Notes under the pieces: model-generated
What the model was told of the DNA's origin: nothing
Databases searched by the model: none
Seen by the model: only the letters and a program-made list of their open reading frames with translations
Program-made: the position numbers and the translations under genes
Source: Candidatus Gottesmanbacteria bacterium RIFCSPHIGHO2_01_FULL_40_15
GTDB lineage: Bacteria; Patescibacteriota; Microgenomatia; 2-02-FULL-39-11
Reading direction: 5' to 3'
Assembly (NCBI GenBank): GCA_001779115.1
Contig: MFJF01000015.1
Span: forward strand, 22,491-86,490
DNA length: 64,000 nt
In this document: one piece after another, positions 5,462-53,575 of the stretch
Layout: every line of letters begins with the position of its first letter
Numbering within the stretch: position 1 is the first letter of the stretch

Positions 5462-6481
5462 ATGAAAAATATTTTCATTACGGGAGGAGCCGGTTTCATC
5501 GGGTCAAACCTGGCTGCCCATTTTATTAAAAAAGGAAAAAAAGTAACTGTTTTTGATAACCTTTCAAGGCAGGGAGGAAAAGCCAATTTGGACTGGCTGT
5601 CTTCTTTGGGTCCTTTCAAATTCACAAGAGGAGATATCAGGAATAAATCTGAACTTGAAAAGGCGGTTAGGGGGGCTGATGCAATACTCCATCTGGCTGG
5701 TCAGGTTGCCGTAACCACATCAGTTGACGATCCTGCCACAGACTTTGACATTAATGCTTTGGGTACCTTTAATCTCCTTGAAGCTGTCAGAACTTCCGGA
5801 AAAAAAATTCCAGTCATATTTTCATCAACTAATAAAGTTTACGGCGGAATGGAGAATATCAAAGTCATAGAAAAAAATGGCCAGTATATATATAAAGACT
5901 ATAAGTTCGGAATCGCCGAAACTAAAAACCTTGATTTCCATTCACCCTACGGCTGTTCTAAGGGGGCGGCCGATCAGTATATGCGGGATTATTACCGCAT
6001 CTATGATATTCCGACAGTTGTTTTCCGTCAATCCTGCATTTACGGTCCGCGTCAATTCGGTATTGAAGACCAGGGTTGGGTAGCCTGGTTTATTATCGCT
6101 GCTTTTTCCGGAAAAAAAATAACTGTTTACGGCGATGGTAAACAGGTCAGGGATGTGCTTTTTATTGATGATCTGGTTGGGCTTTTTGATATTACACTCG
6201 CAAACATAAATAAATCCGCCGGTAAAATATATAACGTCGGAGGCGGATTTACTAATATACTTTCAGTTTGGACAAAGTTCGGACCTATTTTGGAGGATCT
6301 TTTCGGGCATAAAATAAGAGTGAGTTTCAGCCGGTGGCGGCCCGGTGATCAGAAAGTTTATATTAGTGATATTAGACAGGTTAAAAAAGAGCTCGGTTGG
6401 CAACCCAAAGTCGGAGTTAAAGAGGGTATATCAAAATTATTTAAGTGGGTGGGCAGTAATCAGAATCTGTTCAAATCTTGA
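5462..6481 (+). CDS. CDP-paratose/tyvelose 2-epimerase-like SDR (NAD-dependent sugar-nucleotide epimerase)
   Basis: TGGAGFIGSNL Rossmann motif. VFDNLSRQGGKANLDWL, STNKVYGG and HSPYGCSKGAADQYMRDY (YxxxK) closely resemble the RfbE/Tyv family. Confidence 0.7.
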   Translation: MKNIFITGGAGFIGSNLAAHFIKKGKKVTVFDNLSRQGGKANLDWLSSLGPFKFTRGDIRNKSELEKAVRGADAILHLAGQVAVTTSVDDPATDFDINALGTFNLLEAVRTSGKKIPVIFSSTNKVYGGMENIKVIEKNGQYIYKDYKFGIAETKNLDFHSPYGCSKGAADQYMRDYYRIYDIPTVVFRQSCIYGPRQFGIEDQGWVAWFIIAAFSGKKITVYGDGKQVRDVLFIDDLVGLFDITLANINKSAGKIYNVGGGFTNILSVWTKFGPILEDLFGHKIRVSFSRWRPGDQKVYISDIRQVKKELGWQPKVGVKEGISKLFKWVGSNQNLFKS

Positions 6482-6485
6482 AGAT

Positions 6486-7610
6486 ATGCCAAAATACAAC
6501 AACATTTTAGTCACCGGCGGAGCCGGTTTTATCGGTTCGCATTTGGTCGACGCTTTAATTACTAAAGGTTTTAAAGTCCGGGTTCTTGATAATCTCGATA
6601 AACAGATACACCCCTCTGGCAAGCTTCCTGCATACTTTAACAGGAAAGCTCAATTCATTAAAGGCGATGTAGTTAAAACTGAAGATTGGCGTAAAGCGTT
6701 AAACAAAATTGATTGTGTTTTTCATTTTGCTTCAGCTGTCGGCGTCGGCCAGAGTATGTATGAGATTGAAAAATACGTGCGCGTCAACTGTCTTGGGACG
6801 GCGCTTTTTCTTGACATGTTGGCCAATAAGAGTCACGGCGTTAGAAAAATTATTGTGGCCGCTTCCATGAGTTCTTACGGTGAAGGAAGCTACATTTGCA
6901 GTAAATGCGGTATTGTCAGACCGGATCTTCGTCCCCAATCTCAGCTGAAAAAAAGAGACTGGCAGGTATATTGTCCTGAATGTGGCATTTGGGTAACGCC
7001 TGTTCCGACAAAAGAAGAAGCCAAGCAGAATTCCAATTCTATTTATGCGATTACCAAAAAAAACCAGGAAGACATGATTCTGACAACCGGTAAAACTTAC
7101 GGTATTCCCTCTGTTGCCCTCCGTTTTTTTAATGTTTACGGTCCCAGACAATCACTTTCCAATCCCTATAACGGTGTGGCTGCCATATTCCTCAGCCGCA
7201 TCAAAAATAATAAACCGCCTGTAATAAATGAAGACGGTTTTCAGACCAGGGATTTTATCCATATTACTGATGTTGTTTCAGCCTGTATTGCCGCCATGGA
7301 AAAATCCTCAGGGGATTACGAAGTATTTAATGTAGGCAGCGGTAAACCTGTTACTATATTGGAAGTAGCCGGGGTTATAAGCAGATTATTAAAAAGTTCT
7401 ATTAAACCTGACATAACGGGTAAAGCAAGAAAACTTGATGTCCGTCATTGCTATGCCGATCTGAAAAAAATTAAAAAACTGCTCGGTTGGTCTCCCAAAA
7501 TTAAACTCTTGGAAGGATTTGCCGGACTGATTGAATGGGGTAAATATGAGAAAGCGCGGGATAAGGTGGATTATGCTCTTGGTGAATTGGAAAAAAGAGG
7601 ATTAAGATGA
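6486..7610 (+). CDS. NAD-dependent epimerase/dehydratase (SDR) with a Zn-ribbon insertion
   Basis: ILVTGGAGFIGSHLVD, and a catalytic Ser region (ASMSSYGEG) followed by a CSKCG...CPECG insertion before YAITK. Start taken at ATG 6486; the ORF track's TTG 6345 would overlap the upstream gene by 137 nt. Confidence 0.7.
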   Translation: MPKYNNILVTGGAGFIGSHLVDALITKGFKVRVLDNLDKQIHPSGKLPAYFNRKAQFIKGDVVKTEDWRKALNKIDCVFHFASAVGVGQSMYEIEKYVRVNCLGTALFLDMLANKSHGVRKIIVAASMSSYGEGSYICSKCGIVRPDLRPQSQLKKRDWQVYCPECGIWVTPVPTKEEAKQNSNSIYAITKKNQEDMILTTGKTYGIPSVALRFFNVYGPRQSLSNPYNGVAAIFLSRIKNNKPPVINEDGFQTRDFIHITDVVSACIAAMEKSSGDYEVFNVGSGKPVTILEVAGVISRLLKSSIKPDITGKARKLDVRHCYADLKKIKKLLGWSPKIKLLEGFAGLIEWGKYEKARDKVDYALGELEKRGLR

Positions 7611-8350
7611 CAGTTTCATTCATAATTCCCTTCCATAATGAAGGAAAAAACTGCCAACCGATGGTAGAACGTGTAGCGGCTTTTGCTGAAAAAAATGATA
7701 TTGATTATGAAATAATTCCGGTGGATGACAGAAGTAATGATAAAACACGGCAAATCCTTAAGAATTTATGCGCGAAAAACAGGCGAATAAAACCCGTTAT
7801 ACGAAAAGAGGACAGCGTGGAAAAGGGAAATACTATGGGCAGTGCCCTTATGGAAGGAACGGTAAAATCAATCGGCCGTTTTATAATTTGGACTATGGGC
7901 GATATGGCCGACAATACTGCAACTTATAAAGATATACTGGATAAACTTAACGGCAATTATGATATGGTTTTTGGTTCCCGTTATATGCCCGGCGGTTCAC
8001 GGGGTAATCTTGATCCTTTGAAAGCGACTTTAAGCTCAACAGGCACTTTCCTGGCCCGGATTCTGTTTGGAATTCCCGTTCATGATATAACTAATGCCTT
8101 CCGGGGTTTTAAAAAAGAAGTATTTCAGAAAGTAAGCCTGGAAGAGACCGGATTCGGCATTTCACCTGAATTTGCCATTAAAGCCCATATGGCCGGATTT
8201 AAGCTCGGGGAAGTTCCGACAACATACGCCAACAGGGTTGAAGGAATCTCCAATTTTAAACTATATAAAATGACCAGGGGATACCTTTTATTATACTTCA
8301 AACTCCTTCTAAAATACCGGCTTCACAAAAAAAAGCTGGTCCTTCACTGA
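7607..8350 (+). CDS. GT2 polyprenyl-phosphate sugar synthase (Dpm1/GtrB-like)
   Basis: SFIIPFHNEG...IPVDDRSNDKT and a C-terminal RVEGISNFK motif typical of Dpm1/GtrB enzymes. ATGA overlap with the upstream gene. Confidence 0.7.
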   Translation: MTVSFIIPFHNEGKNCQPMVERVAAFAEKNDIDYEIIPVDDRSNDKTRQILKNLCAKNRRIKPVIRKEDSVEKGNTMGSALMEGTVKSIGRFIIWTMGDMADNTATYKDILDKLNGNYDMVFGSRYMPGGSRGNLDPLKATLSSTGTFLARILFGIPVHDITNAFRGFKKEVFQKVSLEETGFGISPEFAIKAHMAGFKLGEVPTTYANRVEGISNFKLYKMTRGYLLLYFKLLLKYRLHKKKLVLH

Positions 8351-9586: not shown

Positions 9587-9988
9587 ATGATAATCAGATC
9601 AATCAACAAAATCAAAGAACAGCCGGCCGGCCATGAAAATAAGAAAAATCCCGGCTCCCTGAAAAAAATTATCTTTGACCGGAAAAATTTGCCGGGTCTT
9701 TATAAACCCCAAATGATTAATTGGGCCCGCATTCCCTCCGGAAGAAAATTTAGGCCGCATTACCATCAGGATATGACAGAAATCTTCATTATCCTAAAAG
9801 GCCGTGCCGGAATAACCGTAGACGGCAAATTTGCCCGCTTAAAAAAAGGTGATGCGGTTTTAATTGAGGAAATGAAAGAGCATGAAATGGAAAACACCGG
9901 AAAGCAGGATGTTGAATATCTCGTTATCGGTTTATCCCGCGGTGAAGGAGGGAAAACCGTCATCTCCGGGCAAAAAAATAATGAATAA
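9587..9988 (+). CDS. cupin-domain protein. Start uncertain; an internal ATG near 9713 is also possible.
   Basis: Two-His cupin motifs (HYHQDMTEIFIILKG...GDAVLIEE..EHEMEN), about 110-130 aa. Confidence 0.5.
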   Translation: MIIRSINKIKEQPAGHENKKNPGSLKKIIFDRKNLPGLYKPQMINWARIPSGRKFRPHYHQDMTEIFIILKGRAGITVDGKFARLKKGDAVLIEEMKEHEMENTGKQDVEYLVIGLSRGEGGKTVISGQKNNE

Positions 9989-11384
9989 AAAAAGCTTGGT
10001 CTTCTTTATCTTTCTGACATTTTCGGCTCTGACAGCTTTTTATTTATTCCGTAAGTCTTTAAACGGGTTCTTTTTCCAGGATGACTGGTTTTCACTTAAA
10101 ATCAGTTCGGTTAAAAACATTAGGGATGCCTTAAATATATTTGTTCCAAGGTCTGACGTGATTTATTACCGTCCTTTGGGAATGCAGTTGCCCTTTTATC
10201 TCTTAAGCTTGGGCGGTAAGATTAACCCCATCCCGTTTAAGGTACTTATAGCCGTGGTGCATTTTGCCAATATTTGTCTTCTAAGTCTTCTGATTCTGAA
10301 GTTAACCGGAAAAAAATTCAGTTCACTTTTGGTTTCATTTTTCTATTCCACTTCCCTGATTCATTTCACTATTTTTTGGTGGAGCGCCACTTTATCATTT
10401 ATTTTAACAACTTTCTTTTTGCTTATAGCCCTCATTTTATATTTAAAATATTTAACGGAAAAAAAATTTTGGTCTTATTTCTCAACCCTGTTATTTTTTA
10501 CCCTGGCTCTCTTAACCAATGAGATGGCGTTGATTTTTCCGGTGCTAACGCTGTTGCTGCTATGGCTGATTAAAAAAGGAAAGTTCTCATATTTGGGGGT
10601 TGTTCCCTTTATAATTTTACCGGTAATACTTTTTTCAGCCCGATTTCTGTATTTTCCGCCGCCGATATCCGGGGATTACCGGCTGGTTATCGACAGGGGA
10701 CTGATTATTAATCTGAGGGATTACTTCCTCTGGAGTTTTAATTGGCCAGAAGAAATGAAAGGACAATTCGTTAAATTTTTTGCAGTCAATCCTCTTTTTA
10801 TCAGCGGTTTTAAACCTTATTTTTTGGCATTTGTTGTAACACTTTTTATTAATTTGTCTTTCCTTTTTTTAATTCCCTTTCTTTATCTTCTGATTTCCGG
10901 GAATTTAATACCCTTCCGGATGATTATATTCGGAGCTGGTTTATTTCTGGCGGGTTTATTGCCGGTTATACTTTTCGGCCGGCACACTTTTTCCTATTAT
11001 CTGACTCTTTCCCTGATCGGACTGCTTCTTATAACCTCCTCTCTGATTGAAGAGTTTTTCGCAAGTTTCGAAGGCAAATACAGACTTTTGGTTTTCTTTT
11101 ATTTGCTGGTAATTCTAACCAATTGGCTCTATTCGTCATTTATGGGCTTCGAGTTCAACATGAAAGTCCATTGGGCTCCCCGCCGATCGGATATTTCGCA
11201 AAAACTTATTTCTCATGCCGGAGGATTAAAACCGGCTGCCGGGCAAACAGTAATTATTTCGGTAAATAATAATCCTGAAGTGAAACTGGCTTTAAACAAT
11301 CAGGACGCGTTCCAAGTTTTGTTCGGCAGAAACGATATCATTACTGTTTATTCAGATAAAATCGAGGCCGATTTCAGATTATGA
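9983..11384 (+). CDS. polytopic integral membrane protein of unknown function, possibly GT-C-like
   Basis: 467 aa and at least 11 hydrophobic segments. ATGAATAAA start overlaps the cupin stop. I recognised no family. The ORF track start of 9882 is rejected because of the overlap. Confidence 0.45.
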
Positions 11385-12529
11385 AGAAAACTATTGTAGT
11401 ACTAGCAATTGTTATTACTTCGCTGCATTTAATAAATTTCTGGCATATAAATCTGGAAAGGTTAAAAAGACCCTTTGATCCGGATTACTTTTCCGGACTT
11501 TATTCAACTTCCCAATATGTTTTGGGAGAAAAATCAAAAGGAGGTATCGGTGATGACGGACTTTATGCTTTTGCCGGCTATTATTACTTTTTCCAACAGG
11601 GAGATGTCAGTGCGGTAAACTTTGAACACCCGCCTTTGGGGAAATATCTAATTGGACTTTCAATTTTTCTTTTTAACAACGAAATTATAATCGGAATTAT
11701 ATATTTTATTTTTCTTCTTATCACGGTTTATAAATTAAGCGGTTTACTGATAAGTGATAAATATCTTTCCCTTCTTCCCCCGATTCTGATTTCATGGGAT
11801 CCGCTCTTTCTCGATCACACAATAAGATCCCAGCTTGACCTTCCCTTCTCGTTGTTTTTCGTCACGGCTGTTTATTTTTTTCTTCTGATTTTTAAAAATA
11901 ATACCGGTATATATCTTTCCCAATTATTTTGGGCCTTGGCGTTTAGCGTCCGTTTTTTCCCGTTTCTTATTATTTTGGAAATTTATATGGCAATTATTAC
12001 ATTTTTTGTCGGCCGCAGGTTTTTACTCCGGTTTCTTCTGTCGTCACTTTTAACTCCGGTTATATACCTTGTAACCCATACCGTTTTTTTTATTTACCAT
12101 CCGTCACTGGTGGAATTTCTCAGGCATAAAAAATGGATGCTCGCCTGGTTTACCGGAACTCCGGTTAAATTCGGCAATATCTTAAGAAACATTTTTACCG
12201 GAAGGCTTCTTGATACGCTTGATAATTCGGTTGTCAATAACCTGTGGACTCCGATGCAGCCGGTAATTTTAGTTTTGGCACTGCTTTGTCCGTGTCAATT
12301 TCATCGGCGGAATAATTCAATTAGCGTAAAATTTTCCCCGTATTTTGTTCTATTAGGTTTTGTAATCTTATATTTCCTTTATACCGTAATTTTAACCGGC
12401 GGCCAGGCGAAATTTATCATGCCTGTATTTCCGCTGATGGCGGTTCTGGCGGTAAAGAATGCGGCAGATCTCTATAGTATAATACTGCCATGGATCAGGG
12501 CGCGCTTGAGGCATTCAAAAACAAAGTAG
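11381..12529 (+). CDS. short PMT-like (GT39-type) GT-C mannosyltransferase homologue
   Basis: The loop after TM1 reads DDGLYAFAGYYYFFQQGDVSAVNFEHPPLGKYLIGL, which resembles the PMT loop-1 DE...HPPLGKLL signature. Many TM segments, 382 aa, no MIR domain. Confidence 0.55.
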   Translation: MKKTIVVLAIVITSLHLINFWHINLERLKRPFDPDYFSGLYSTSQYVLGEKSKGGIGDDGLYAFAGYYYFFQQGDVSAVNFEHPPLGKYLIGLSIFLFNNEIIIGIIYFIFLLITVYKLSGLLISDKYLSLLPPILISWDPLFLDHTIRSQLDLPFSLFFVTAVYFFLLIFKNNTGIYLSQLFWALAFSVRFFPFLIILEIYMAIITFFVGRRFLLRFLLSSLLTPVIYLVTHTVFFIYHPSLVEFLRHKKWMLAWFTGTPVKFGNILRNIFTGRLLDTLDNSVVNNLWTPMQPVILVLALLCPCQFHRRNNSISVKFSPYFVLLGFVILYFLYTVILTGGQAKFIMPVFPLMAVLAVKNAADLYSIILPWIRARLRHSKTK

Positions 12530-13935
12530 TCGGCGGCGTTTTGGCCTTAACTACACGGACTTTCATCCTCCAGATAATATCATTTACTGCTACTTTTATT
12601 CTGACCATATTGCTGTCTCCTGAAATATTCGGGATTTTTTTTGTTGTTTCAGCCGTAATTTCCTTTCTTACCTATTTTTCCGATATCGGACTGGCAGCGG
12701 CTCTTATACAGAAAAAGGATGAGCCTGTCAGAAGCGAACTGGTGTCCGTTTTTACTTTACAGCAGGTGATAGTAACCCTAGTAGTCGCAGTCTCTTTTTT
12801 AAATGTTTCGCTAATTTCCCGTTTTTATAAATTATCCGGGGATGGTACTTTTCTTTTCCAGGCTCTTTTAGTTTCTTTTTTTCTTTCTTCTTTAAAGACC
12901 ATACCCTCAATTCTTCTGGAACGTAAACTGGATTTTTCCCTTTTGGTAGTCCCTCAGATTCTTGAAAATCTGGCTTTTTACCTAACGGCCGTAATTCTGG
13001 CGCTTTTGAATTTGGGTATTGCCAGTTTCGCCTGGGCAGCTTTGATCAGAGGCATTGTCGGTTTGATTGCCATTTATTCAGTTTCTCCATGGGTTCCGGG
13101 TCTTGGTTTTTCCTATTCCTCGGTGAGACACCTGATTACTTTTGGAATTCCTTTCCAGGCTAATTCTCTTCTGGCACTCGTTAAGGATGATCTTCTTACA
13201 TTATATTTGGGCAAAATACTGCCTTTTTCCTTTATCGGCTATCTTGGCTGGGCAAAAAAATGGGCTGAAATTCCTCTCAGGCTTATTATGGACAGTGCCG
13301 TCAGGGTCACTTTCCCGGCCTTTTCAAGAATCCAAAAAGAAACCGCCTTATTGAAAAAAGCCATTGACAAAACCGTATTTTTTCTGGCGCTTTTGATTCT
13401 GCCGGTATCGGTTCTTTTGATTGTCTATATTAAACCGGCCATCGGAATAATTCCTAAATATCAGAAATGGGAGCCGGCTTTACCGGCTTTTTATCTTTTT
13501 TCACTTTCTGCTGTCCTGGCGTCCTTTTCCAGTCCGATTGTTAACGCGCTTAATGCTTTGGGGAAAATTAGAAAAACCTTAGGTCTGATGTTACTCTGGA
13601 CTGTAATGACCTGGATGCTGGTACCGGTTCTGACAAATCTTATCGGCTATAACGGTTGGCCGATTTCAGCCCTTCTTATTTCCTCCACTCTATTCCTGCC
13701 TGTGTCAATGTTAAAAAAGTATGTCAGTTTTGATTTTTGGAAAAATCTGAAAACCCCCCTGGTCTTAACTTTGGTAATGTTCCTGTTTTCGTTTATGACA
13801 ATGTCTTTTGTATATAATATTTATACTCTGGTTGCTTTAATTTCTGCCTCCCTCCTTTTATACTTGCTTTTATGTTTTTATTTTCTTAAAAAAGACATCT
13901 TGCCTTTTCTTCCGGAGTTTCTAAAACGTGTTTGA
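12490..13935 (+). CDS. Wzx-like polysaccharide/oligosaccharide flippase (MOP/PST family)
   Basis: 481 aa with about 12-14 TM segments. The N-terminus (KNKVVGGVLALTTRTFILQIISFTATFILTILLSPEIFGIFFVVSAV) is typical of PST-family flippases. Confidence 0.7.
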   Translation: MDQGALEAFKNKVVGGVLALTTRTFILQIISFTATFILTILLSPEIFGIFFVVSAVISFLTYFSDIGLAAALIQKKDEPVRSELVSVFTLQQVIVTLVVAVSFLNVSLISRFYKLSGDGTFLFQALLVSFFLSSLKTIPSILLERKLDFSLLVVPQILENLAFYLTAVILALLNLGIASFAWAALIRGIVGLIAIYSVSPWVPGLGFSYSSVRHLITFGIPFQANSLLALVKDDLLTLYLGKILPFSFIGYLGWAKKWAEIPLRLIMDSAVRVTFPAFSRIQKETALLKKAIDKTVFFLALLILPVSVLLIVYIKPAIGIIPKYQKWEPALPAFYLFSLSAVLASFSSPIVNALNALGKIRKTLGLMLLWTVMTWMLVPVLTNLIGYNGWPISALLISSTLFLPVSMLKKYVSFDFWKNLKTPLVLTLVMFLFSFMTMSFVYNIYTLVALISASLLLYLLLCFYFLKKDILPFLPEFLKRV

Positions 13936-15673
13936 TTTTAGTAAAACAGCCATAAACCGTGCTTTTTCTTTTCCGGCAACACTACTGATGCTGTTTTTGT
14001 GTTTGGGTATTTTCAGTTCATCCATGCCAAAGGCAGTGGCATCGCCCCGGTATATGCCATCTGCTTCTTATGTAAACATTGTAGTACCGTTAAGAAGCCG
14101 GGAATATTGGAAGGATTTCGGAAATGTTATTCCTCTGTTTGAATTCCTGAAAGAGGAAAAATTGCCCACAACTGTTCTTATCCAGTACTCCAATCTCCGT
14201 GATCCGCAGGTCCGAGATTATTTAAAAAGTCTTCCTGAAAATTTTGAATTGGGTTTGTTTTTGGAAGTAGATCAGGTTCTGGCAGATGATTCATTTGCTT
14301 CATATTATTTCGGCATGGATGACCGTTCCCACGCTAATCAGATATTCTTGTCAGGCTATAAAGTAAGTGAAAGGAAAAGAATGATTGATTCTGTTTTTAA
14401 CCGGTTTCGGGAAGTATTCGGATATTTCCCCGGATCTGCCGGAGCCTGGTATGTGGACGCTTTATCCCAAAATTACCTTAAGGATAAATACGGAGTTTCA
14501 GCGCTACTTGATGTTGCCGACCAGTTCCGGACGGATACTTACGGTCTTTGGGGTAAACCATGGGGAACTCCTTTTTTCCCGTCAAAAATAAATCCCCTGG
14601 TACCCTCAGCCGGTAAAAGTGATAATTCACAAATAGTTAAAATCCAGTGGGCAGCACGAGATCCTGTCAGGGGCTATGGCCTCAATGTCTTTGATTCAAC
14701 TTACAGCGTCCAGGCTAATGATTATATTAAAGGGCACCGGTTGGATACCGGTTATTTTACCCATTTAGCTGCCGCTTATCTTTTTTCAAAAAATTATGTT
14801 AACCAGTTAACCCTGGGACTTGAAGCAGGCCAGGAAGGGGCTTCATTTCTGGATGAATTCAGGCTCCAGATTGAAGCTATCCGGCAATTAAACAGTGTTA
14901 ACAGGATAACCTTTGTAACCATGAAGGAATTTGCCGGCATTTTCCGCCGGGCTTATTCAGTGCCTAAATGGAGTTGGGCTGTAGAATCTTCCGATTATTT
15001 TAACCGCCAAACTAAAGCTTACTGGATAAATTTCCCTTCCTATAGGGTTTTAATACTTTTTGAAAATAACGGTTTGATCCTAAAAGATCTCAGGGTTTAT
15101 GATAATGCCCGGTTTTGGGCTGATTTTTTCGATTCCGACCGAAATCGCGATTTAAAAAGAATTCTTCCTGCCTGTATTGACAGCCTTAATATGCACAATG
15201 AAATGCTTCTTGCTGCCGGAGTCGACAGTCCCGAATTGGTACGGATTGATAATTCAAATACATTCTATATTCAGTTTAGCACTGATAAAAAATCCGGACC
15301 GGAAAAATTGGTTTTTTCAAAAGACGGCATTTTTTCCGGTAATGAAAATATCTTCGACTCAGGCCGTTTGCTTGTTTCCGATAATTTTCTGACGGAATTT
15401 TTTATGGATTTGATGCACGTTTATCAGCTTAAAAAAAACCGATTTTATGGGAAAAATATCCGTTTATCCAAAATAAACGGTAACTTTTATTTCGGCTTGG
15501 AAATATCTCCCGGAAAATTATTGGCGTTGACAAGTTCTTATCCATTCGGAGGTATTTATGATTTCCCTTTTCAGATTCTTTCCAAATTTCATAGGCTTAA
15601 TATTATTGACAATCTTCAGCCGTATTTTCAAAGTTTTATTAATCCGCCCGTTAATTGTAAAATTAAACTGTGA
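13928..15673 (+). CDS. hypothetical exported or membrane-anchored protein, possibly carbohydrate-active
   Basis: N-terminal hydrophobic signal or anchor followed by a soluble domain of about 540 aa. I recognised no catalytic motif. Confidence 0.4.
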   Translation: MFDFSKTAINRAFSFPATLLMLFLCLGIFSSSMPKAVASPRYMPSASYVNIVVPLRSREYWKDFGNVIPLFEFLKEEKLPTTVLIQYSNLRDPQVRDYLKSLPENFELGLFLEVDQVLADDSFASYYFGMDDRSHANQIFLSGYKVSERKRMIDSVFNRFREVFGYFPGSAGAWYVDALSQNYLKDKYGVSALLDVADQFRTDTYGLWGKPWGTPFFPSKINPLVPSAGKSDNSQIVKIQWAARDPVRGYGLNVFDSTYSVQANDYIKGHRLDTGYFTHLAAAYLFSKNYVNQLTLGLEAGQEGASFLDEFRLQIEAIRQLNSVNRITFVTMKEFAGIFRRAYSVPKWSWAVESSDYFNRQTKAYWINFPSYRVLILFENNGLILKDLRVYDNARFWADFFDSDRNRDLKRILPACIDSLNMHNEMLLAAGVDSPELVRIDNSNTFYIQFSTDKKSGPEKLVFSKDGIFSGNENIFDSGRLLVSDNFLTEFFMDLMHVYQLKKNRFYGKNIRLSKINGNFYFGLEISPGKLLALTSSYPFGGIYDFPFQILSKFHRLNIIDNLQPYFQSFINPPVNCKIKL

Positions 15674-16575
15674 TCAGTGCTGTCATACATACCTATAACG
15701 AAGAAGAAAATATTGACCGAAACCTGTCCTCCTTAACATGGGTTGATGAAATTATTCTGGTTGATATGGGTTCCAGGGATAAAACTTTGGAAATTGCCGG
15801 CCGGTATAAAACCAGAATTTTTGCTCACGCTTATACCGGCTACGTCGAACCTGCCAGAAATTTCGGAATCGGAAAAGCGAAAGGCGACTGGATCCTTATC
15901 ATAGATGCCGATGAGGAACTGCCTTGGTCTCTTTCCAAAAAAATCAGGCAACTGGAAAACATTCCGGATCAGGATATAACTTTCTACAGAATACCCAGGA
16001 AAAATGTTGTTTTCGGAAAATGGCTCAAACACTCCGGTTGGTGGCCGGATCACCAGATAAGATTTTTCAGAAAAGGCAGTGTTACCTGGGGTGATGAAAT
16101 TCACCGGGTACCGGTAACCCGGGGTATAGGCCGCGAGCTGGAAGACAGGGAAGAATTAGCAATCATTCACTACCATTACTCAACAATAGGCATGTACCTG
16201 AACCGGATAAACCGTTATTCCTCAATTCAGGCAAAAGAACTTTTTCTTAATAATAAAAAATTTACACCGGATTTGCTCATTTTCCCCCCGGTTAATGAAT
16301 TCGTCAAAAGGTTTTTTTTCCTGGAAGGTTATAAGGATGGACTTCACGGCCTGGCAGTTTCCCTGCTTCAGGCCTTTTCCGAACTTATTGTTTATTTAAA
16401 ACTTTGGGAATTATCGAAATTTTTTCAAATGCCCGTTTTACTTGACCGGGTTTACCGGAATAATAAAACGGTCGGCAGAATCTTTAATTACTGGCTTTAT
16501 AATGAACTTTTAAAAAAGCCAACCGGTTCTTTAAAAAGCCTTAAATGGCGTATTCTCCGTAAACTCAATTCATGA
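15670..16575 (+). CDS. GT2 glycosyltransferase, KdtX/WaaE-like (paralog 1 of 3)
   Basis: MISAVIHTYNEEENI...VDEIILVDMGSRDKT...DADEE. C-terminal LHGLAVSLLQAFSELIVYLKLWE helix shared with 17481 and 40840. GTGA start/stop overlap. Confidence 0.7.
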   Translation: MISAVIHTYNEEENIDRNLSSLTWVDEIILVDMGSRDKTLEIAGRYKTRIFAHAYTGYVEPARNFGIGKAKGDWILIIDADEELPWSLSKKIRQLENIPDQDITFYRIPRKNVVFGKWLKHSGWWPDHQIRFFRKGSVTWGDEIHRVPVTRGIGRELEDREELAIIHYHYSTIGMYLNRINRYSSIQAKELFLNNKKFTPDLLIFPPVNEFVKRFFFLEGYKDGLHGLAVSLLQAFSELIVYLKLWELSKFFQMPVLLDRVYRNNKTVGRIFNYWLYNELLKKPTGSLKSLKWRILRKLNS

Positions 16576-17468
16576 ATAATATTTTCATTGTAATTGTCCA
16601 TTTCGGCAAACCCGAACTGACTCAGGATTGCCTCCGGTCAATTTATCAAAGCCCCCAAGCTACTTGGAGCACAATCATTATTAATAACAGTCCTGACTGC
16701 AATTTAAACGGCATCATTTCTCCGTTTCAAGGCGTTTCAACCGTTAATCCCGGGAAAAATCTCGGTTTTGCCGCCGCCAATAATTTGGGAATAAGAAGCG
16801 CTTTAAAAAAGGGCGCCCGGATATTAATCCTCCTTAATAACGATACAATTGCCGGTGAAAATCTTATCCCGATCCTGGCGGATTTTGCCGGTAAAAATCC
16901 TGACACCGGGATTGTTTCTCCGAAGATATATTTTGCCCCCGGGTACGAATACCACCCTGAAAGGTACGGAAAAAAAGATTTGGGTAAAGTTATTTGGTAT
17001 GCCGGAGGTGTGATTGACTGGAAAAACATGTACGCGTCCCATATCGGCGTGGATGAAGTGGACAACCCCGGTCTCAACCCTTCCCGGAAAACCGATTTTG
17101 CCACTGGCTGCTGCATGCTGATAAATAGGGAAGTTGTGGAAAAAACAGGATTGATCGATGAGAAGTATTTTCTGTATTATGAAGATGTTGCTTATTCGCA
17201 AAAAGCCATAAAATCAGGTTTTAAAGTTTCCTATTGCCCAAAAGCCCATCTTTGGCACAAAAATGCCCGGTCATCCGGCCCGGGTTCTTCAGTTCATATT
17301 TACTATCAGTCCAGAAACAGGCTTTATTTCGGTATGAAATATGCTCCCTGGAAAACAAAGATTGCTCTAGTCAGAGAAAGCCTCCGGAAATTGTCCGAAG
17401 GCGGTATTGAATCCGGGGCTGTTATTGACTTTTATATTGGCCGTATGGGAAAAGGCCGCCTGAAGTGA
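16572..17468 (+). CDS. GT2 glycosyltransferase (rhamnosyltransferase-like)
   Basis: IFIVIVHFGKPELT...NNSPD...LLNNDT, and YYEDVAYS (the ED motif of GT2). Confidence 0.65.
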   Translation: MNNIFIVIVHFGKPELTQDCLRSIYQSPQATWSTIIINNSPDCNLNGIISPFQGVSTVNPGKNLGFAAANNLGIRSALKKGARILILLNNDTIAGENLIPILADFAGKNPDTGIVSPKIYFAPGYEYHPERYGKKDLGKVIWYAGGVIDWKNMYASHIGVDEVDNPGLNPSRKTDFATGCCMLINREVVEKTGLIDEKYFLYYEDVAYSQKAIKSGFKVSYCPKAHLWHKNARSSGPGSSVHIYYQSRNRLYFGMKYAPWKTKIALVRESLRKLSEGGIESGAVIDFYIGRMGKGRLK

Positions 17469-17480
17469 TTGTTTGACTAA

Positions 17481-18248
17481 ATGAAAAAAACATTATCAGT
17501 AATTGTCATTGCCAAAAACGAAGAAAAAAACTTGCCGGAATGTCTTAAACGGCTCAAATTTGCCGGTGAAATAATACTTATTGACAACAATTCGACTGAC
17601 CGGACACATTGGGTTGCGAAAAAATTTAATGCCCGGATCTACAATTATGCCGGTATGGATTTTTCAAAAATGAGGATTTTGGGAGCCCGGTTAGGAAGCT
17701 TTAATTGGCTTTTATATATTGATGCCGATGAAAGAGTCACGGCTGAGCTCGCAAAGGAAATAAAAGAAAAACTTATAAGACCTCCTCAAAAAGCCGCTCC
17801 GGCAGCCTACAGTCTGATCCGCCGGAATTTCTATTTCAGACGGTCTTGGCCGGCAGGCGAAAATATTATCAGGCTTATAAAAAAAGACGCACTAATTGGA
17901 TGGTCCGGTCCGGTCCATGAAAGCCCGCGCATAAATGGTACGGTCAGCCGGTTGAAAAATCCGCTTCTCCATTACACGCACAATGATCTTTTTGACATGG
18001 TTGAAAAAACTAATCTCTGGTCGGAAACGGAAGCTGATTTGAGATATAAAAAAAATCACCCTGAGGTGGTCTGGTGGAGATTTTACCGGGTAATGCTGAC
18101 GGCGTTTTTTAATTATTTTATCAGGCAAAATGGATTTAGAGCCGGTGCCATCGGCTTGGTGGAGTCATTATTTCAGGCATTTAGTATTTTTATAACCTAT
18201 GCCAAGTTATGGGAACGCCAGATTTCCCCAAAAGCCAAAATTGCATGA
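17481..18248 (+). CDS. GT2 glycosyltransferase, KdtX/WaaE-like (paralog 2)
   Basis: LSVIVIAKNEEKNL...AGEIILIDNNSTDRT...DADER, and a C-terminal GLVESLFQAFSIFITYAKLWE. Confidence 0.7.
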   Translation: MKKTLSVIVIAKNEEKNLPECLKRLKFAGEIILIDNNSTDRTHWVAKKFNARIYNYAGMDFSKMRILGARLGSFNWLLYIDADERVTAELAKEIKEKLIRPPQKAAPAAYSLIRRNFYFRRSWPAGENIIRLIKKDALIGWSGPVHESPRINGTVSRLKNPLLHYTHNDLFDMVEKTNLWSETEADLRYKKNHPEVVWWRFYRVMLTAFFNYFIRQNGFRAGAIGLVESLFQAFSIFITYAKLWERQISPKAKIA

Positions 18249-19312
18249 AAAAAAAGAAGATTCTGCTTTATAGTCCTTATCTGTCCACTCTGGGAGGCGG
18301 GGAAAGATATTTGTTCCAAATAGCCGCAGCTTTACAGAATGATCACCGGGTTACTTTGGCGGCGGATCCGGACATTAAAAAAAAAGCCGATAAATTTTTT
18401 TCCATTGATCTTAATAAAACGGAGATTATCCCGGTTAAATTATTCGTCAGCCAAAAGTTTATCTCCCGTTATTTTTTTACCAAACTTTACGACCTGGTTT
18501 TTTATGTCACTGACGGCAGTCTGATTTTTCCTTCAGCCAAAAAAAATTATCTCATTATCCAGTCACCAAATCATATCCCCCCCGATACTTTTCCCGTTAA
18601 ACTGAAACTGCCCGGTTGGAAGATTGTCTGTTACTCGGCTTTCATGAAAAATATCATATCCGGAAGGATTAACCGGAAGGCATATGTCCTTCCTCCGGCA
18701 GTTGATACCGTTCTTTTCAGTCAGGGGAACCGGAAAAAAGAAAAAATCATTCTTACTGTGGGTCGGATTTTTACCTCAGCCCTCCATGAAAAAAGACAGG
18801 ATTTCCTTATAAGTTTTTTCAAAAAAAATTACCGGAAACATTTTTCCGGTTGGCGGTTTATTATTTGCGGAAATGTAACGGAAGAGAGCGGCCAGAAAAC
18901 TTTTGAAAAAATGCAAATAAACATGAAAGGCGCGCCTGTTGAACTGCATAAAAATCTGCCTTTTTCCCGGCTTCTGACATTCTACCGCAAAGCAGCTGTT
19001 TATTGGCATGCCGCCGGATACGGTTCAGATGAAGAAACCAATCCTGAAAAAATGGAGCATTTCGGCATAACGACAATTGAGGCGATGGCGGCCGGTGCCG
19101 TACCGGTGGTATATGGAGCCGGAGGCCAAACGGAAATAATTGAAAATGGAAAATCAGGTTTTCTTTTTAAAGACGAGAGAATTTTTTTAAAGAGAAATAT
19201 TGAAATAATCACCAATCAAAATCTTTTAGACAAATTAAAAACCGGCGCCGTTAAAAAAGCAGCTGTCTACTCATTTGCCAATTTCCGTAAAAAAGTAAAT
19301 GAACTTATATAA
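18245..19312 (+). CDS. GT4 (GT-B) glycosyltransferase
   Basis: C-terminal EAMAAGAVPVVYGAGGQTEIIENGKSGFLF is a GT4 donor-binding motif. ATG 18245 is preferred over the ORF-track start at 18209. Confidence 0.7.
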   Translation: MKKKKILLYSPYLSTLGGGERYLFQIAAALQNDHRVTLAADPDIKKKADKFFSIDLNKTEIIPVKLFVSQKFISRYFFTKLYDLVFYVTDGSLIFPSAKKNYLIIQSPNHIPPDTFPVKLKLPGWKIVCYSAFMKNIISGRINRKAYVLPPAVDTVLFSQGNRKKEKIILTVGRIFTSALHEKRQDFLISFFKKNYRKHFSGWRFIICGNVTEESGQKTFEKMQINMKGAPVELHKNLPFSRLLTFYRKAAVYWHAAGYGSDEETNPEKMEHFGITTIEAMAAGAVPVVYGAGGQTEIIENGKSGFLFKDERIFLKRNIEIITNQNLLDKLKTGAVKKAAVYSFANFRKKVNELI

Positions 19313-44536: not shown

Positions 44537-44893
44537 ATGCCGTTCACATTTACCCAAATTTTTTTAAGCCTGTTTTTATTATTCGCCATCAGCCGGGTAG
44601 TTATCCGTTTCCGGGAAGGCATACTGCCTTTGTTGGGATTTGCTTTTTGGCTGGCGGTTTTCGGCTTTGCCATTGTTATCGTTCTGTTTCCCGGATTAAC
44701 CAGCGTATTGGCCACTGTTGTGGGGATCGGCAGGGGAGCCGATTTTGTGATATATGTATCAGTCAGTCTTATTTTTTTCCTTATTTTCAGACTGTATATC
44801 TATTTGGAGGATATCAGGCATGATATTACCGAAATTATCACGCATTTGGCTCTAGAGAATAAAAAACGGAAAAATGCCCGGAAAACTTCCTAA
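44537..44893 (+). CDS. small 3-4-TM membrane protein (DUF2304-like partner of Dpm1-type GT2)
   Basis: 118 aa and hydrophobic, immediately after the GT2. GT2 plus a small membrane protein is a common arrangement. Confidence 0.4.
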   Translation: MPFTFTQIFLSLFLLFAISRVVIRFREGILPLLGFAFWLAVFGFAIVIVLFPGLTSVLATVVGIGRGADFVIYVSVSLIFFLIFRLYIYLEDIRHDITEIITHLALENKKRKNARKTS

Positions 44894-45662: not shown

Positions 45663-45666
45663 TAAT

Positions 45667-45674
45667 TATATAAT
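45667..45674 (+). promoter_or_regulatory. candidate -10 element (TATATAAT) upstream of the fcl-like gene
   Basis: TATAAT at 45669-45674, 20 nt before ATG 45694, in a 31-nt intergenic gap. Confidence 0.25.
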
Positions 45675-45693
45675 TTACTTTTAAACCAAATTT

Positions 45694-46629: not shown

Positions 46630-46640
46630 TTCGGGGATAA

Positions 46641-47822: not shown

Positions 47823-47837
47823 AATTTTTTTAATTTT

Positions 47838-51453: not shown

Positions 51454-51471
51454 CAGGAGTAATTAACTAAA

Positions 51472-53573: not shown

Positions 53574-53575
53574 AA

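What the first reader, a model, noticed from the sequence alone, without database searches (positions are those of the whole stretch)
11381..13935. Eukaryote-type PMT loop-1 signature in a short bacterial protein next to a Wzx flippase
The protein at 11381..12529 carries DDGLYAFAGYY...FEHPPLGKYLIGL directly after TM1. This closely mirrors the DE...HPPLGKLL loop-1 signature of protein O-mannosyltransferases (GT39). At 382 aa it has no MIR domain. Its stop overlaps a PST-family flippase. It is a candidate protein O-mannosylation enzyme in this organism.
Basis: partly seen in the sequence, partly recalled or inferred. Interest (0 to 1): 0.6.

Follow-up and report, generated by a model that had tools for sequence, protein, structure and literature searches.

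The report
Compact PMT-like membrane glycosyltransferase in Gottesmanbacteria
This gene encodes a small membrane glycosyltransferase that very probably adds a lipid-carried sugar to something on the outside of an uncultured Gottesmanbacteria-type cell; its resemblance to protein O-mannosyltransferases is real but limited, and relatives already carry that database label, so it is a fairly ordinary find.

Summary
The ORF 11381..12529 (382 aa) and its motifs (D58-D59; E82-HPPLGK-88) are real. They are invariant in 35 orthologs and lie in the first extracytoplasmic loop. This loop resembles yeast Pmt2 (z=8) far more than ArnT or the window's other GT-C paralogs.

Pfam PMT and PMT_2 do not hit the window protein itself. 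Among 35 orthologs, 27 match PMT_2 and 17 match PMT; in the eight scored individually the PMT match excludes loop 1. The AlphaFold model (pLDDT 88.8) is a GT-C fold closest to ArnT. It has about 10 TM helices with both ends cytoplasmic, no PMT_4TMC module, no MIR domain and no soluble domain. Across the wider family the His of HPPLGK varies.

The gene lies in a 16-gene block conserved in Gottesmanbacteria: two PTPS_related GT-Cs, GT2, two SDRs, GT2, cupin, GT-C, target, Wzx, unknown protein, three GT2, GT4, YfhO.

My best reading is a lipid-phosphate-sugar-dependent transferase acting on the outer face within an envelope-glycan assembly line. Protein O-mannosylation is possible but unproven. 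Relatives are already annotated as "GT39 family". I rate it a new member of a known kind, of modest interest.

The parts
11381..12529 (+). Target: a compact GT-C glycosyltransferase of 382 aa and about 10 TM helices, in the PMT/PMT_2 clan.
   Evidence: ORF. 232 homologs, mostly from Gottesmanbacteria. 27 of 35 orthologs match PF13231 and 17 of 35 match PF02366. AF2 model has pLDDT 88.8. Foldseek's best hit is ArnT, followed by other GT-C enzymes.
11450..11632 (+). First extracytoplasmic loop (EL1, residues 24-84). It carries the invariant D58-D59 (nt 11552-11557) and leads into E82-HPPLGK88 (nt 11624-11644).
   Evidence: Invariant columns. The positive-inside analysis places the loop outside. 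Similarity to Pmt2 loop 1 gives z=8.
9981..11384 (+). Upstream partner GT-C of 467 aa (start taken at Met34 of ORF 9882..11384). It has an invariant FQDDW motif after TM1 and overlaps the target start by ATGA.
   Evidence: 103 homologs, some with PF13231 or PF19528. Invariant Q33-D34-D35. AF2 pLDDT 91. Foldseek's best hits are AglB, PglB and STT3, then Pmt4 and ArnT. Junction sequence.
12490..13935 (+). Wzx/PST-family (MOP superfamily) flippase. Its ORF overlaps the target's 3' end by 40 nt.
   Evidence: PF13440 at 2.3e-46 and PF01943 at 5e-24. NCBIfam matches MOP flippase models below their cut-offs. Junction sequence. Adjacent to the target in 14 of 16 ortholog loci.
7607..8350 (+). Small GT2 (247 aa) that resembles polyprenyl-phosphate-monosaccharide synthases. 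Proposed maker of the lipid-P-sugar donor.
   Evidence: PF00535 at 9e-20. Best NCBIfam matches are AglJ, Dol-P-hexose transferase, PgfS, ArnC and PpgS, all below cut-off. Conserved in position in the orthologous loci.
5462..6481 (+). SDR1, an NDP-sugar 4,6-dehydratase/epimerase-like enzyme.
   Evidence: Best NCBIfam match is dTDP-glucose 4,6-dehydratase (7e-58, 196 bits against a 365 cut-off). Syntenic.
6486..7610 (+). SDR2, an NDP-sugar epimerase/reductase-like enzyme with an inserted Cys4 segment.
   Evidence: NCBIfam matches to GalE, LegB and RmlB models are split into two stretches. The sequence contains CSKCG...CPECG. Syntenic.
9587..9988 (+). Small cupin (133 aa) with weak similarity to the cupin domain of type II mannose-6-phosphate isomerase.
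   Evidence: Cupin_2 at 1.4e-16. PF01050 at 2e-5 (25.1 bits against a 23.6 cut-off). Present in several orthologous loci.
13928..15673 (+). Conserved 581-aa protein of unknown function with an N-terminal hydrophobic segment.
   Evidence: No Pfam or NCBIfam hit. An ortholog shows a weak DUF3863 hit. Present in 6 of the 56 fetched loci (4 independent contigs).
15670..19312 (+). Three GT2 genes (15670-16575, 16572-17468, 17481-18248) and one GT4 gene (18209-19312). These are cytoplasmic glycosyltransferases proposed to build the lipid-linked glycan.
   Evidence: Pfam. NCBIfam gives a rhamnosyltransferase-like match for the middle GT2. Conserved order.
19299..21590 (+). YfhO-family GT-C (763 aa) that closes the conserved block.
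   Evidence: PF09586 at 2.5e-16. Syntenic.
1389..5459 (+). Head of the conserved block: two PTPS_related-type GT-C membrane proteins (1389-3038, 3028-4749) and a small GT2 (4722-5459).
   Evidence: The window copies have no Pfam hit. They are 35-44% identical to L001 and L003 genes that carry PF10131. The GT2 matches PF00535 at 2.7e-22.

Best explanation
The gene encodes a compact GT-C-fold glycosyltransferase of the PMT/PMT_2 clan. It has about 10 TM helices, both termini in the cytoplasm, and no soluble domain.

**Proposed mechanism**
1. The two SDRs and the cupin tailor a nucleotide sugar.
2. The small GT2 at 7607-8350 loads that sugar onto polyprenyl phosphate at the cytoplasmic face.
3. 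The lipid-P-sugar reaches the outer leaflet, possibly through the translationally coupled Wzx-type flippase. AglR in haloarchaea and the MATE flippase of GT136 systems are precedents for this.
4. The target transfers the sugar to an acceptor outside the cell. The invariant D58 of loop 1 would act as catalytic base. D59, E82 and D153, together with the basic residues K88, R191, R248, K250 and K344, would hold the donor phosphate and the acceptor.

**Most likely acceptor.** I think the acceptor is the envelope glycan or glycoconjugate built by the same conserved operon. In that operon three GT2 and one GT4 act inside the cell, and five GT-C enzymes act outside.

**Shown:** the fold, the family-level Pfam membership, the outer-face location of all invariant polar residues, and the conserved synteny.

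**Inferred:** the identity of the donor sugar, the flipping route and the acceptor.
For: **Fold.** The AF2 model has pLDDT 88.8 and pTM 0.89. The top Foldseek PDB hits are all GT-C enzymes. ArnT is best at E=1.5e-4 and TMq 0.58.

**Family.** 27 of 35 orthologs match PMT_2 (scores of 31-47 bits against a 26.1 cut-off in the eight scored individually). 17 of 35 match PMT. hhalign to a window paralog that matches PMT gives 91% probability.

**Topology.**
- K+R density is 0.28-0.45 per residue in the predicted cytoplasmic loops and 0.07-0.11 in the long outer loops.
- All invariant polar residues lie on the outer side.
- Fusion proteins insert one extra TM helix between the module and an extracytoplasmic PBP-pedestal domain. 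That independently places the module's C-terminus in the cytoplasm.

**General GT-C pattern.** The expected pattern is an acidic pair in EL1, Asp/Arg in EL2, Arg/Lys in EL3 and a basic residue in EL5 (PMC6801728). The target has all four.

**Context.**
- The triplet GT-C, target, Wzx is intact in 14 of 16 ortholog loci, and most keep the full 16-gene block.
- In distant Woesebacteria and Microgenomates relatives the module sits directly behind SDR-(SDR)-GT2.
- The GT2 best resembles the polyprenyl-P-sugar synthases AglJ, PgfS, ArnC and PpgS.
- The module is found fused to a PTPS_related GT-C, the family at the head of this operon, and to PBP-pedestal domains.

**Precedents.** Three-component systems are described in PMC11127046. 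The AglD/AglR/AglS pathway is described in PMC3871713.
Against: - The window protein itself gives no Pfam or NCBIfam hit. No member or profile of the family matches any solved GT-C by sequence.
- The GT2, SDR and Wzx assignments are all below the curated equivalog cut-offs, so the sugar is unknown.
- No biochemical data exist for any member of the family, and I found no literature on it.
- Wzx proteins classically flip Und-PP-oligosaccharides rather than Und-P-monosaccharides. The adjacency could instead reflect a shared pathway.
- The preference for a glycan acceptor over a protein acceptor rests only on context.
- The GT39-like loop 1 and the EL4 beta-hairpin, which recalls the peptide-facing hairpin of MtPMT, point the other way.
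Confidence: 0.5

Rival explanations
1. The protein is a true protein O-glycosyltransferase. It transfers mannose or another hexose from polyprenyl-P-sugar to Ser/Thr of secreted or surface proteins, as actinobacterial Pmt and eukaryotic PMTs do, or as the YfhO-type PgfM1 and PgtC2 of streptococci do.
For: - Loop 1 is significantly more like Pmt2 and Pmt4 than like ArnT.
- About half of the orthologs match PF02366. In the fusion relative P0136 the PF02366 match covers loop 1 (profile positions 4-224).
- The model has an EL4 helix followed by a beta-hairpin (275-285), as described for the peptide-binding EL4Cter of MtPMT.
- The cupin next door passes the PF01050 (mannose-6-phosphate isomerase, C-terminal) cut-off narrowly.
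- GT-C enzymes paired with GT2 partners are known to O-glycosylate Ser/Thr-rich regions in bacteria (PMC12041528).
Against: - There is no PMT_4TMC module and the protein has about 10 TM helices, not 11. The Rx2Y motif of EL5 is replaced by K344-F345.
- The closest fold is ArnT.
- No solved PMT is detectable by sequence.
- The His of HPPLGK is not conserved across the family.
- The gene sits in an operon of polysaccharide-type genes.
- The window encodes no Ser/Thr-rich protein.
- No GDP-mannose synthesis gene or Ppm1-type gene was identified.
- The SDR pair suggests a modified sugar rather than mannose.
Confidence: 0.25
2. The protein handles the Wzx-flipped lipid-linked oligosaccharide itself. 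It would act as a polymerase, ligase or oligosaccharyltransferase that moves a whole glycan from polyprenyl-(P)P to a growing chain, a wall polymer or a protein.
For: - The gene is translationally coupled to Wzx, and this adjacency is conserved.
- No recognisable Wzy, WaaL or PglL gene and no initiating phosphoglycosyltransferase was found among the window ORFs of 150 aa or more that were scanned.
- The adjacent GT-C resembles the TM cores of AglB, PglB and STT3.
- The small GT2s best match AglJ, which starts a Dol-P-linked glycan in haloarchaea.
Against: - The PMT_2, ArnT and PMT relatives with known function all use monosaccharide-P-lipid donors (established knowledge).
- The target lacks the large periplasmic domain and the WWDYG-type motif of oligosaccharyltransferases.
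- Of the two adjacent GT-Cs, the OST-like one is the neighbour, not the target.
Confidence: 0.12
3. The protein is not a transferase. It would be a lipid-linked-sugar scramblase or flippase helper (like the PMT_2-like archaeal Agl23) or a catalytically dead GT-C scaffold (like PIG-U).
For: - Agl23 is reported as a putative hexose-P-Dol flippase, and the purified protein translocates a lipid-linked oligosaccharide in vitro (PMC11182771).
- A window paralog weakly matches the Agl23 NCBIfam model.
- PIG-U is the third-ranked Foldseek hit.
- The gene abuts a flippase gene.
Against: - 0 of 35 family members match the Agl23 model TIGR03663 at E<=1.
- The acidic pair and the basic residues on the outer face are invariant, as expected for an active GT-C.
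Confidence: 0.05

Closest known systems
PMT_2 (Pfam PF13231) GT-C enzymes: ArnT (GT83) and RgtA-D-type transferases
   Same: - Family-level Pfam membership above the cut-off.
- ArnT is the best structural match (5f15 and 5ezm; E=1.5e-4, TMq 0.58).
- Loop 1 aligns in register with ArnT: DD with DE, GD with GD, FEHPP with FEKPP.
- The expected donor is a polyprenyl-P-monosaccharide made by a GT2.
   Different: - The protein has 382 aa and about 10 TM helices. ArnT has about 550 aa, 13 TM helices and a C-terminal periplasmic domain.
- There is no detectable sequence match to ArnT chains.
- A lipid A acceptor is implausible, because Patescibacteria are generally considered to lack LPS (my own knowledge, not tested here).
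Protein O-mannosyltransferases: GT39 (yeast Pmt1, Pmt2 and Pmt4; M. tuberculosis PMT)
   Same: - An acidic pair in EL1, and an HPPLGK-x-L-x-GLS string that is 10 of 12 identical to Pmt2.
- PF02366 matches in about half of the orthologs.
- An EL4 helix followed by a hairpin.
   Different: - No PMT_4TMC module, no MIR domain, and about 10 TM helices rather than 11 with the C-terminus inside.
- Weaker fold match than ArnT.
- K-F replaces Rx2Y in EL5.
- The His is not conserved in the wider family.
Haloarchaeal AglD / AglR / AglS module
   Same: The logic matches. A GT2 loads a sugar on lipid phosphate, a Wzx/Rft1-like protein is needed for its appearance outside, and a Dol-P-Man-dependent transferase adds it to an existing glycan (PMC3871713 and PMC5744192). 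Here a GT2 with AglJ-like best hits, a Wzx and a PMT-like GT-C are clustered.
   Different: I could not test sequence relatedness to AglS, because the primary papers and sequences are not held. The organism is a bacterium, and the lipid carrier and sugar are unknown.
Bacterial three-component extracytoplasmic glycosylation systems (GtrA/B/C; CsbB-GtcA-YfhO; the GT136 system; Pgf)
   Same: The components match: a polyprenyl-P-sugar synthase, a flippase and a GT-C. Epimerases sit nearby, and acceptors can be glycans or Ser/Thr-rich proteins (PMC11127046 and PMC12041528).
   Different: - The flippase candidate is a full-size PST/Wzx protein rather than GtrA or an SMR protein.
- The GT-C belongs to another family.
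- The module is embedded in a much larger operon with five GT-Cs.

Membership tests
GT-C superfamily | A polytopic membrane fold with the conserved GT-C TM module. | tested here: met
   The AF2 model has pLDDT 88.8. All significant and near-significant Foldseek hits are GT-C proteins: ArnT, STT3, ALG3, EmbC, AftA, PIG-M, Pmt, ALG9, PglB and AftB.
GT-C superfamily | An acidic DxD, DD or DE motif in the first extracytoplasmic loop after TM1, plus conserved charged residues in EL2, EL3 and EL5 (PMC6801728). | tested here: met
   D58 and D59 are invariant in 35 of 35 sequences. D153 (34 of 35) lies at the EL2/TM4 border. R191 is R or K in EL3. K344 (34 of 35) lies in EL5. The positive-inside analysis puts all of these on the outer face.
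PMT_2 (PF13231; ArnT/GT83-like) | A Pfam PF13231 match above the gathering score. | tested here: inconclusive
   The window protein gives no hit even at E<=10. 27 of 35 orthologs match, with scores of 31-47 bits against a 26.1 cut-off in the eight scored individually, starting at the PPLGK motif. The criterion is met at family level but not by this sequence alone.
PMT_2 (PF13231; ArnT/GT83-like) | The ArnT architecture: 13 TM helices plus a C-terminal periplasmic domain. | tested here: not met
   The protein has 382 aa and about 10 TM helices, no soluble domain, and a positively charged cytoplasmic C-terminal tail.
GT39 protein O-mannosyltransferase | A PF02366 (PMT) match covering TMH1-7, including loop 1. 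| tested here: inconclusive
   The window protein gives no hit. 17 of 35 orthologs match (25-34 bits against a 22.7 cut-off in the five scored individually), but only over profile positions ~86-236. One fusion relative (P0136) matches positions 4-224.
GT39 protein O-mannosyltransferase | The C-terminal PMT_4TMC module (PF16192) and an 11-TMH, N-in/C-out topology (PMC12331936). | tested here: not met
   No PF16192 hit in 0 of 35 members. Only 3 TM helices follow EL4. The C-terminal tail averages 4.1 K+R and is predicted to be cytoplasmic. Fusion proteins need an extra TM helix to reach the outside.
GT39 protein O-mannosyltransferase | The loop-1 signature D-E...(V)HPPLGK before TM2. | tested here: met
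   DD...EHPPLGKYLIGLS against Pmt2 DE...VHPPLGKMLVGLS gives z=8.0 and hhalign E=1e-6. One caveat applies: the His varies (V, M, N, T, K) among 149 wider-family representatives.
GT39 protein O-mannosyltransferase | The Rx2Y motif in EL5 and a second catalytic Asp (MtPMT R441/Y444 and D176). | tested here: inconclusive
   EL5 carries K344-F345-x-M-P rather than Rx2Y. D153 is a candidate equivalent of D176. I could not obtain a residue-level superposition because model coordinates are not exposed.
GT39 protein O-mannosyltransferase | A MIR beta-trefoil domain (eukaryotic PMTs only). | tested here: not met
   No Pfam hit, and the model is all-helical. Actinobacterial PMT also lacks MIR, so this does not exclude a bacterial-type PMT.
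GT39 protein O-mannosyltransferase | Transfer of mannose from polyprenyl-P-mannose to Ser/Thr of proteins. | not testable with these tools
   This needs biochemistry or glycoproteomics. The window holds no Ser/Thr-rich candidate acceptor.
Three-component extracytoplasmic glycosylation system | A clustered polyprenyl-P-sugar synthase (GT2), a flippase and a GT-C. | tested here: met
   The GT2 at 7607-8350 has AglJ, PgfS, ArnC and PpgS-like best hits, all below cut-off. The Wzx is at 12490-13935. The target is the GT-C. The arrangement is conserved in 14 of 16 ortholog loci, and distant relatives show SDR-GT2-module. The activities themselves were not tested.
Agl23-type flippase-associated PMT_2-like proteins (TIGR03663) | A match to NCBIfam TIGR03663. 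| tested here: not met
   0 of 35 members match at E<=1. Only the window paralog 32797-34407 matches weakly (46 bits against a 126 cut-off).

The most novel reading that the evidence does not exclude
The target is one station of a conserved Patescibacterial assembly line that resembles the ER pathway for lipid-linked glycans. Cytoplasmic GT2 and GT4 enzymes would build a glycan on polyprenyl phosphate, with an AglJ-like start and no classical phosphoglycosyltransferase. A Wzx/Rft1-type protein would flip it. Five GT-C enzymes would then extend it and transfer it outside the cell: two PTPS_related proteins, an OST-like neighbour, this minimal 10-TM PMT-like enzyme, and YfhO. The final acceptor could be surface proteins or the cell wall. 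The paralogs in which the same module is fused to class B PBP pedestal domains would tie this GT-C clade physically to the peptidoglycan synthesis machinery.
Probability: 0.15. Interest if true: 0.65.

Novelty: new member of a known kind. Interest (0 to 1): 0.3.

Why it matters
Patescibacteria (CPR) are uncultured, reduced-genome bacteria that often live attached to hosts, so their surface chemistry probably governs that attachment. Almost nothing is known about their envelope glycans.

This window shows a Gottesmanbacteria-type genome devoting most of 64 kb to glycosylation. It holds at least a dozen GT-C-type membrane proteins. The target belongs to a tightly conserved 16-gene block.

If the target's donor and acceptor were defined, that would give a first handle on CPR surface glycosylation. 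It would also provide a very small GT-C (365-385 aa) that could be useful for structural and mechanistic work.

As it stands, the gene is a plausible but uncharacterised member of a known enzyme clan, and automated pipelines already label its relatives that way.

Tried and rejected
**Searches that gave nothing useful**
- Direct Pfam and NCBIfam scans of the window protein gave nothing, even at E<=10. I therefore moved to family-level scans.
- The family profile, a single sequence and the loop-1 segment were each searched against PDB sequences. None gave a GT-C hit; only chance matches to eIF2B and mandelate racemase appeared.
- I tried to fetch full-length genuine PMT sequences for a profile-profile test, seeding with the verified 42-aa Pmt2 segment. 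I substituted hhalign against the PDB-verified loop segments.
- The primary AglS and AglR papers are not held.
- Literature searches for CPR, Patescibacteria or Gottesmanbacteria combined with GT-C, PMT or glycosylation found nothing relevant.
- Model coordinates are not exposed to scripts, so I could not make a residue-level superposition on ArnT or Pmt.

**Checks with negative results**
- A search of the window for Ser/Thr-rich acceptor proteins found none. The highest 30-aa windows are TM segments or spurious ORFs.
- No initiating phosphoglycosyltransferase was found among the ORFs of 150 aa or more that were scanned.

**Readings considered and rejected**
- A truncated pseudogene of a longer PMT: orthologs are uniformly 365-385 aa.
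- A chance motif: it is invariant across orthologs.
- Lipid A modification in the manner of ArnT: this lineage is not known to make LPS (my own knowledge).

Full report

Yes. ORF 11381..12529 (+) encodes 382 aa beginning MKKTIVVLAIV. After TM1 (residues 4-23) comes a 61-residue loop. It contains GIG-D58-D59-GLYAFAGYYY and NF-E82-HPPLGK88-YLIGLS.

A homolog search found 232 relatives, almost all 365-385 aa. Those that are named come from Candidatus Gottesmanbacteria or other Microgenomates. In an alignment of 35 orthologs (42-64% identity to the window protein), D58, D59, E82, H83, P84, P85, G87 and K88 are invariant.

I retrieved the true loop-1 segments of Pmt1, Pmt2, Pmt4 and ArnT from PDB chains and scored the target loop against them with shuffling controls.

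| Segment | Score | z | Shuffles reaching the score |
|---|---|---|---|
| ScPmt2 | 61 | 8.0 | 0 of 2000 |
| CtPmt4 | 50 | 6.2 | 0 of 2000 |
| ScPmt4 | 42 | 4.3 | 4 of 2000 |
| ScPmt1 | 34 | 2.6 | 47 of 2000 |
| ArnT | 31 | 2.7 | 47 of 2000 |

The window's own PMT_2 paralogs give z<=3.4. hhalign of the family profile against the Pmt2 segment gives 91% probability and E=1e-6 over HPPLGKYLIGLSIFLF. ArnT aligns weakly (E=0.03) but in register over the whole loop.

The window's other GT-C paralogs carry a different loop-1 pattern, DE(A)xxGYxAYS...DYKPPL. The target's GT39-like string is therefore distinctive.

There is no MIR domain. The target's stop codon lies 40 nt inside the downstream Wzx ORF, and the upstream GT-C gene overlaps the target start by ATGA.

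**2. What is it?**

The window protein alone gives no Pfam or NCBIfam hit, even at E<=10. At family level the picture is clearer.
- 27 of 35 orthologs match PMT_2 (PF13231). Scores are 31-47 bits against a 26.1 cut-off in the eight scored individually, and the match starts exactly at PPLGK.
- 17 of 35 match PMT (PF02366). Scores are 25-34 bits against a 22.7 cut-off in the five scored individually. In those, the match covers only profile positions ~86-236, which lies downstream of loop 1.
- None matches PMT_4TMC.

An AlphaFold2 model built on the alignment is confident (pLDDT 88.8, pTM 0.89). It is all-helical except for a small hairpin at 275-285. Foldseek against the PDB returns only GT-C proteins at the top. 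ArnT is first (E=1.5e-4, TMq 0.58). PIG-U, STT3, ALG3, EmbC, AftA, PIG-M, Pmt1/Pmt2 (E=0.15), ALG9, PglB, AftB and Pmt4 follow. No solved GT-C is detectable by sequence.

*Topology.* I combined the model's helices with a family-wide positive-inside count. Predicted cytoplasmic segments carry 0.28-0.45 K+R per residue, and the long outer loops carry 0.07-0.11. This gives 10 TM helices with both termini inside.

Related fusion proteins give independent support. When the module is followed by an extracytoplasmic domain, one extra TM helix is inserted after a KQR linker. When it follows a PTPS_related GT-C, a TM helix and a Lys-rich linker precede the module's TM1.

All invariant polar residues lie on the outer face: D58, D59, D75, N80, E82, H83, K88, D153, R191, H240, E245, R248, H249, K250 and K344. 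They fit the general GT-C pattern of an acidic pair in EL1, Asp/Arg in EL2, Arg/Lys in EL3 and a charged motif in EL5 (PMC6801728).

**3. Context**

The window is an enormous glycosylation locus.
- At least six further ORFs match PMT_2 or PMT directly.
- Two ORFs are YfhO-like, and one is weakly PIG-V-like.
- Several large multi-TM ORFs have no Pfam hit.
- The remainder includes many GT2 and GT4 enzymes, SDRs, an aminotransferase, methyltransferases, an asparagine synthase homolog and an ATP-grasp enzyme.

Around the target, gene order is conserved in other Gottesmanbacteria at 34-54% protein identity. The order is:

PTPS_related x2 - GT2 - SDR - SDR - GT2 - (cupin) - GT-C - TARGET - Wzx - (about 560-aa unknown protein) - GT2 x3 - GT4 - YfhO

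The triplet GT-C, target, Wzx is intact in 14 of 16 ortholog loci, two of which re-sample the same contigs. In distant Woesebacteria and Microgenomates relatives (25-30% identity) the module sits directly behind SDR-(SDR)-GT2. In Pacebacteria it abuts a PTPS_related GT-C, with Wzx and the GT2/GT4 set nearby.

The small GT2 at 7607-8350 best resembles the polyprenyl-phosphate-monosaccharide synthases AglJ, Dol-P-hexose transferase, PgfS, ArnC and PpgS, all below curated cut-offs.

The upstream neighbour (467 aa) is itself a confident GT-C (pLDDT 91) with an invariant FQDDW motif after TM1. Its best structural matches are AglB, PglB and STT3.

No initiating phosphoglycosyltransferase and no Ser/Thr-rich protein is encoded in the window.

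**4. Wider family**

A full HMM scan of 1.84 billion cluster representatives finds 1665 clusters at E<=1e-3 and 218 at E<=1e-30. Among the best 149:
- 77 are standalone proteins of 330-450 aa.
- 34 are 641-720 aa. In the three of these scanned (P0157, P0176, P0187) the module is followed by MecA_N, and in two of them also by PBP_dimer. These are class B PBP pedestal domains, and no transpeptidase domain is present.
- 7 are longer than 720 aa. The three scanned (920-954 aa) have a PTPS_related GT-C fused in front of the module.

The named fusion proteins are Patescibacterial. In this wider set the acidic pair and E-x-PPLGK-Y-L-I-G persist, but the residue before PP varies. EHPPLGK occurs 23 times, EVPPLGK 18, EMPPLGK 18 and ENPPLGK 6. 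Other variants include FENPPLGQY and NKPPVGIY. The exact identity to the eukaryotic HPPLGK is therefore a subgroup feature.

The same loop-1 words also occur in several archaeal lineages (Bathyarchaeia, Desulfurococcales, Sulfolobales and Methanobacteriota) at about 25-37% identity.

**5. Mechanism**

The best-supported reading is a lipid-phosphate-sugar-dependent GT-C transferase acting at the outer face. It would be the last step of a three-component route of GT2 synthase, flippase and GT-C. Such routes are documented for O-antigen and teichoic-acid decoration (PMC11127046). They are also documented for Ser/Thr-rich protein regions (PMC12041528). In haloarchaea the same logic appears as AglD, AglR (Wzx-like) and AglS (PMC3871713 and PMC5744192).

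I rate the fold, the outer-face active site and the lipid-P-sugar donor class at about 0.85. The acceptor is unresolved.
- Context favours the glycan made by the same operon. The supporting points are the five GT-Cs, the three GT2 plus GT4, the Wzx, and the fusions to a PTPS_related GT-C and to PBP-pedestal domains.
- The GT39-like loop 1 and the EL4 hairpin (compare MtPMT, PMC12331936) keep a protein Ser/Thr acceptor alive, at about 0.25.
- Two less likely rivals remain. One is a role in handling the Wzx-flipped oligosaccharide (0.12). The other is a non-catalytic or scramblase role like Agl23 (0.05; PMC11182771; no TIGR03663 match).

The sugar is unknown. The dehydratase-like SDR, the second SDR and the cupin suggest a tailored hexose, perhaps a 6-deoxyhexose. 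The cupin's marginal PF01050 match leaves mannose possible.

**6. Comparison and novelty**

The protein works like ArnT and PMT-type GT-C enzymes.

*Membership.* The GT-C superfamily criteria are met. PMT_2 is met at family level. GT39 in the strict sense is not established: there is no PMT_4TMC module, the topology is 10 TM rather than 11, there is no Rx2Y motif, and the PF02366 match is weak and partial. NCBI and JGI already label homologs 'glycosyltransferase family 39 protein' or 'predicted membrane-bound dolichyl-phosphate-mannose-protein mannosyltransferase'. No paper in the held library addresses these enzymes in Patescibacteria.

I class it as a new member of a known kind, with a compact architecture worth noting, and of modest interest (0.3).

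Noticed in passing
Relatives outside the window: P0157, P0176 (OGF99980.1, Gottesmanbacteria RBG_13_37_7), P0187 and about 30 other clusters: In proteins of about 660-705 aa, the target's ~365-aa GT-C module is fused through one extra TM helix to MecA_N, and in P0157 and P0187 also to PBP_dimer. These are the pedestal domains of class B penicillin-binding proteins, and no transpeptidase domain is present. This architecture is unusual. It hints that this GT-C clade works at the peptidoglycan synthesis machinery.
   Followed up: partly
Relatives outside the window: P0142, P0147, P0200 (920-954 aa); P0136 (604 aa, a shorter relative that keeps only the C-terminal part of the PTPS_related region in front of the module): The same module is fused behind a PTPS_related (PF10131) GT-C. 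That is the family of the two genes heading the conserved block in the window (1389-3038 and 3028-4749). The fusion is Rosetta-stone evidence that the two GT-C types act in one pathway.
   Followed up: partly
window 34-1389, 25085-26758, 27551-29200, 29205-30830, 32797-34407, 34392-35999: Six further PMT_2/PMT-type GT-C paralogs, four of which share the loop-1 pattern DE(A/V)xxGYxAYS...(D/E)YKPP(L). Some match PF02366 much better than the target does; for example 32797-34407 scores 9.5e-13 over profile positions 3-233. That paralog also weakly matches the Agl23 'flippase activity-associated' NCBIfam model.
   Followed up: partly
window 9981-11384: The upstream, ATGA-coupled 467-aa membrane protein is a second GT-C with an invariant FQDDW motif. 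Its predicted TM core is closest to the oligosaccharyltransferases AglB, PglB and STT3, although it lacks their large C-terminal domain.
   Followed up: yes
window 13928-15673: A conserved ~560-580-aa protein with an N-terminal hydrophobic segment and no family assignment; one ortholog shows only a weak DUF3863 hit. It sits between Wzx and the GT2 genes in several Gottesmanbacteria.
   Followed up: no
window 6486-7610: An SDR-type NDP-sugar epimerase/dehydratase whose Rossmann and C-terminal halves are split by an inserted ~40-residue Cys4 segment (CSKCG...CPECG) that looks like a zinc ribbon.
   Followed up: no
window 8360-9526 (-): An opposite-strand ORF interrupts the otherwise co-directional glycosylation block between the GT2 and the cupin. 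I take it to be a tRNA-guanine transglycosylase (tgt)-like gene from reading the sequence only; no family search was run on it. The two orthologous loci with gene calls (L001 and L003) lack this insertion.
   Followed up: no
window 42690-43829: Another short (379 aa) multi-TM protein, with a borderline match to PF04188 (PIG-V-type GPI mannosyltransferase; 22.1 bits against a 22.4 cut-off). It is a second 'eukaryote-flavoured' GT-C candidate in the same window.
   Followed up: no
window 44874-61753: A second sugar-tailoring region. It encodes a DegT-type aminotransferase, several SDRs, an RmlD-like reductase, two GT4, two methyltransferases, an asparagine synthase homolog, an ATP-grasp enzyme, a GFO/IDH/MocA oxidoreductase and a HAD phosphatase. 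This suggests an elaborately modified, possibly amidated or aminoacylated, sugar.
   Followed up: no
Whole window: No initiating phosphoglycosyltransferase (Bac_transf or MraY/WecA type) was found among the ORFs of 150 aa or more that were scanned, despite the Wzx and more than 15 glycosyltransferases. The small GT2s best match AglJ, which starts a glycan on Dol-P in haloarchaea.
   Followed up: partly
Loci L007, L008, L013, L015, L019, L021, L026 and others (genome contigs): Several MAG records titled 'uncultured Gammaproteobacteria' or 'Pseudomonadales' carry orthologs or relatives of the target, and a few (L007, L008, L015) keep the Gottesmanbacteria-type gene order. The taxon labels on these third-party assemblies look unreliable.
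   Followed up: no
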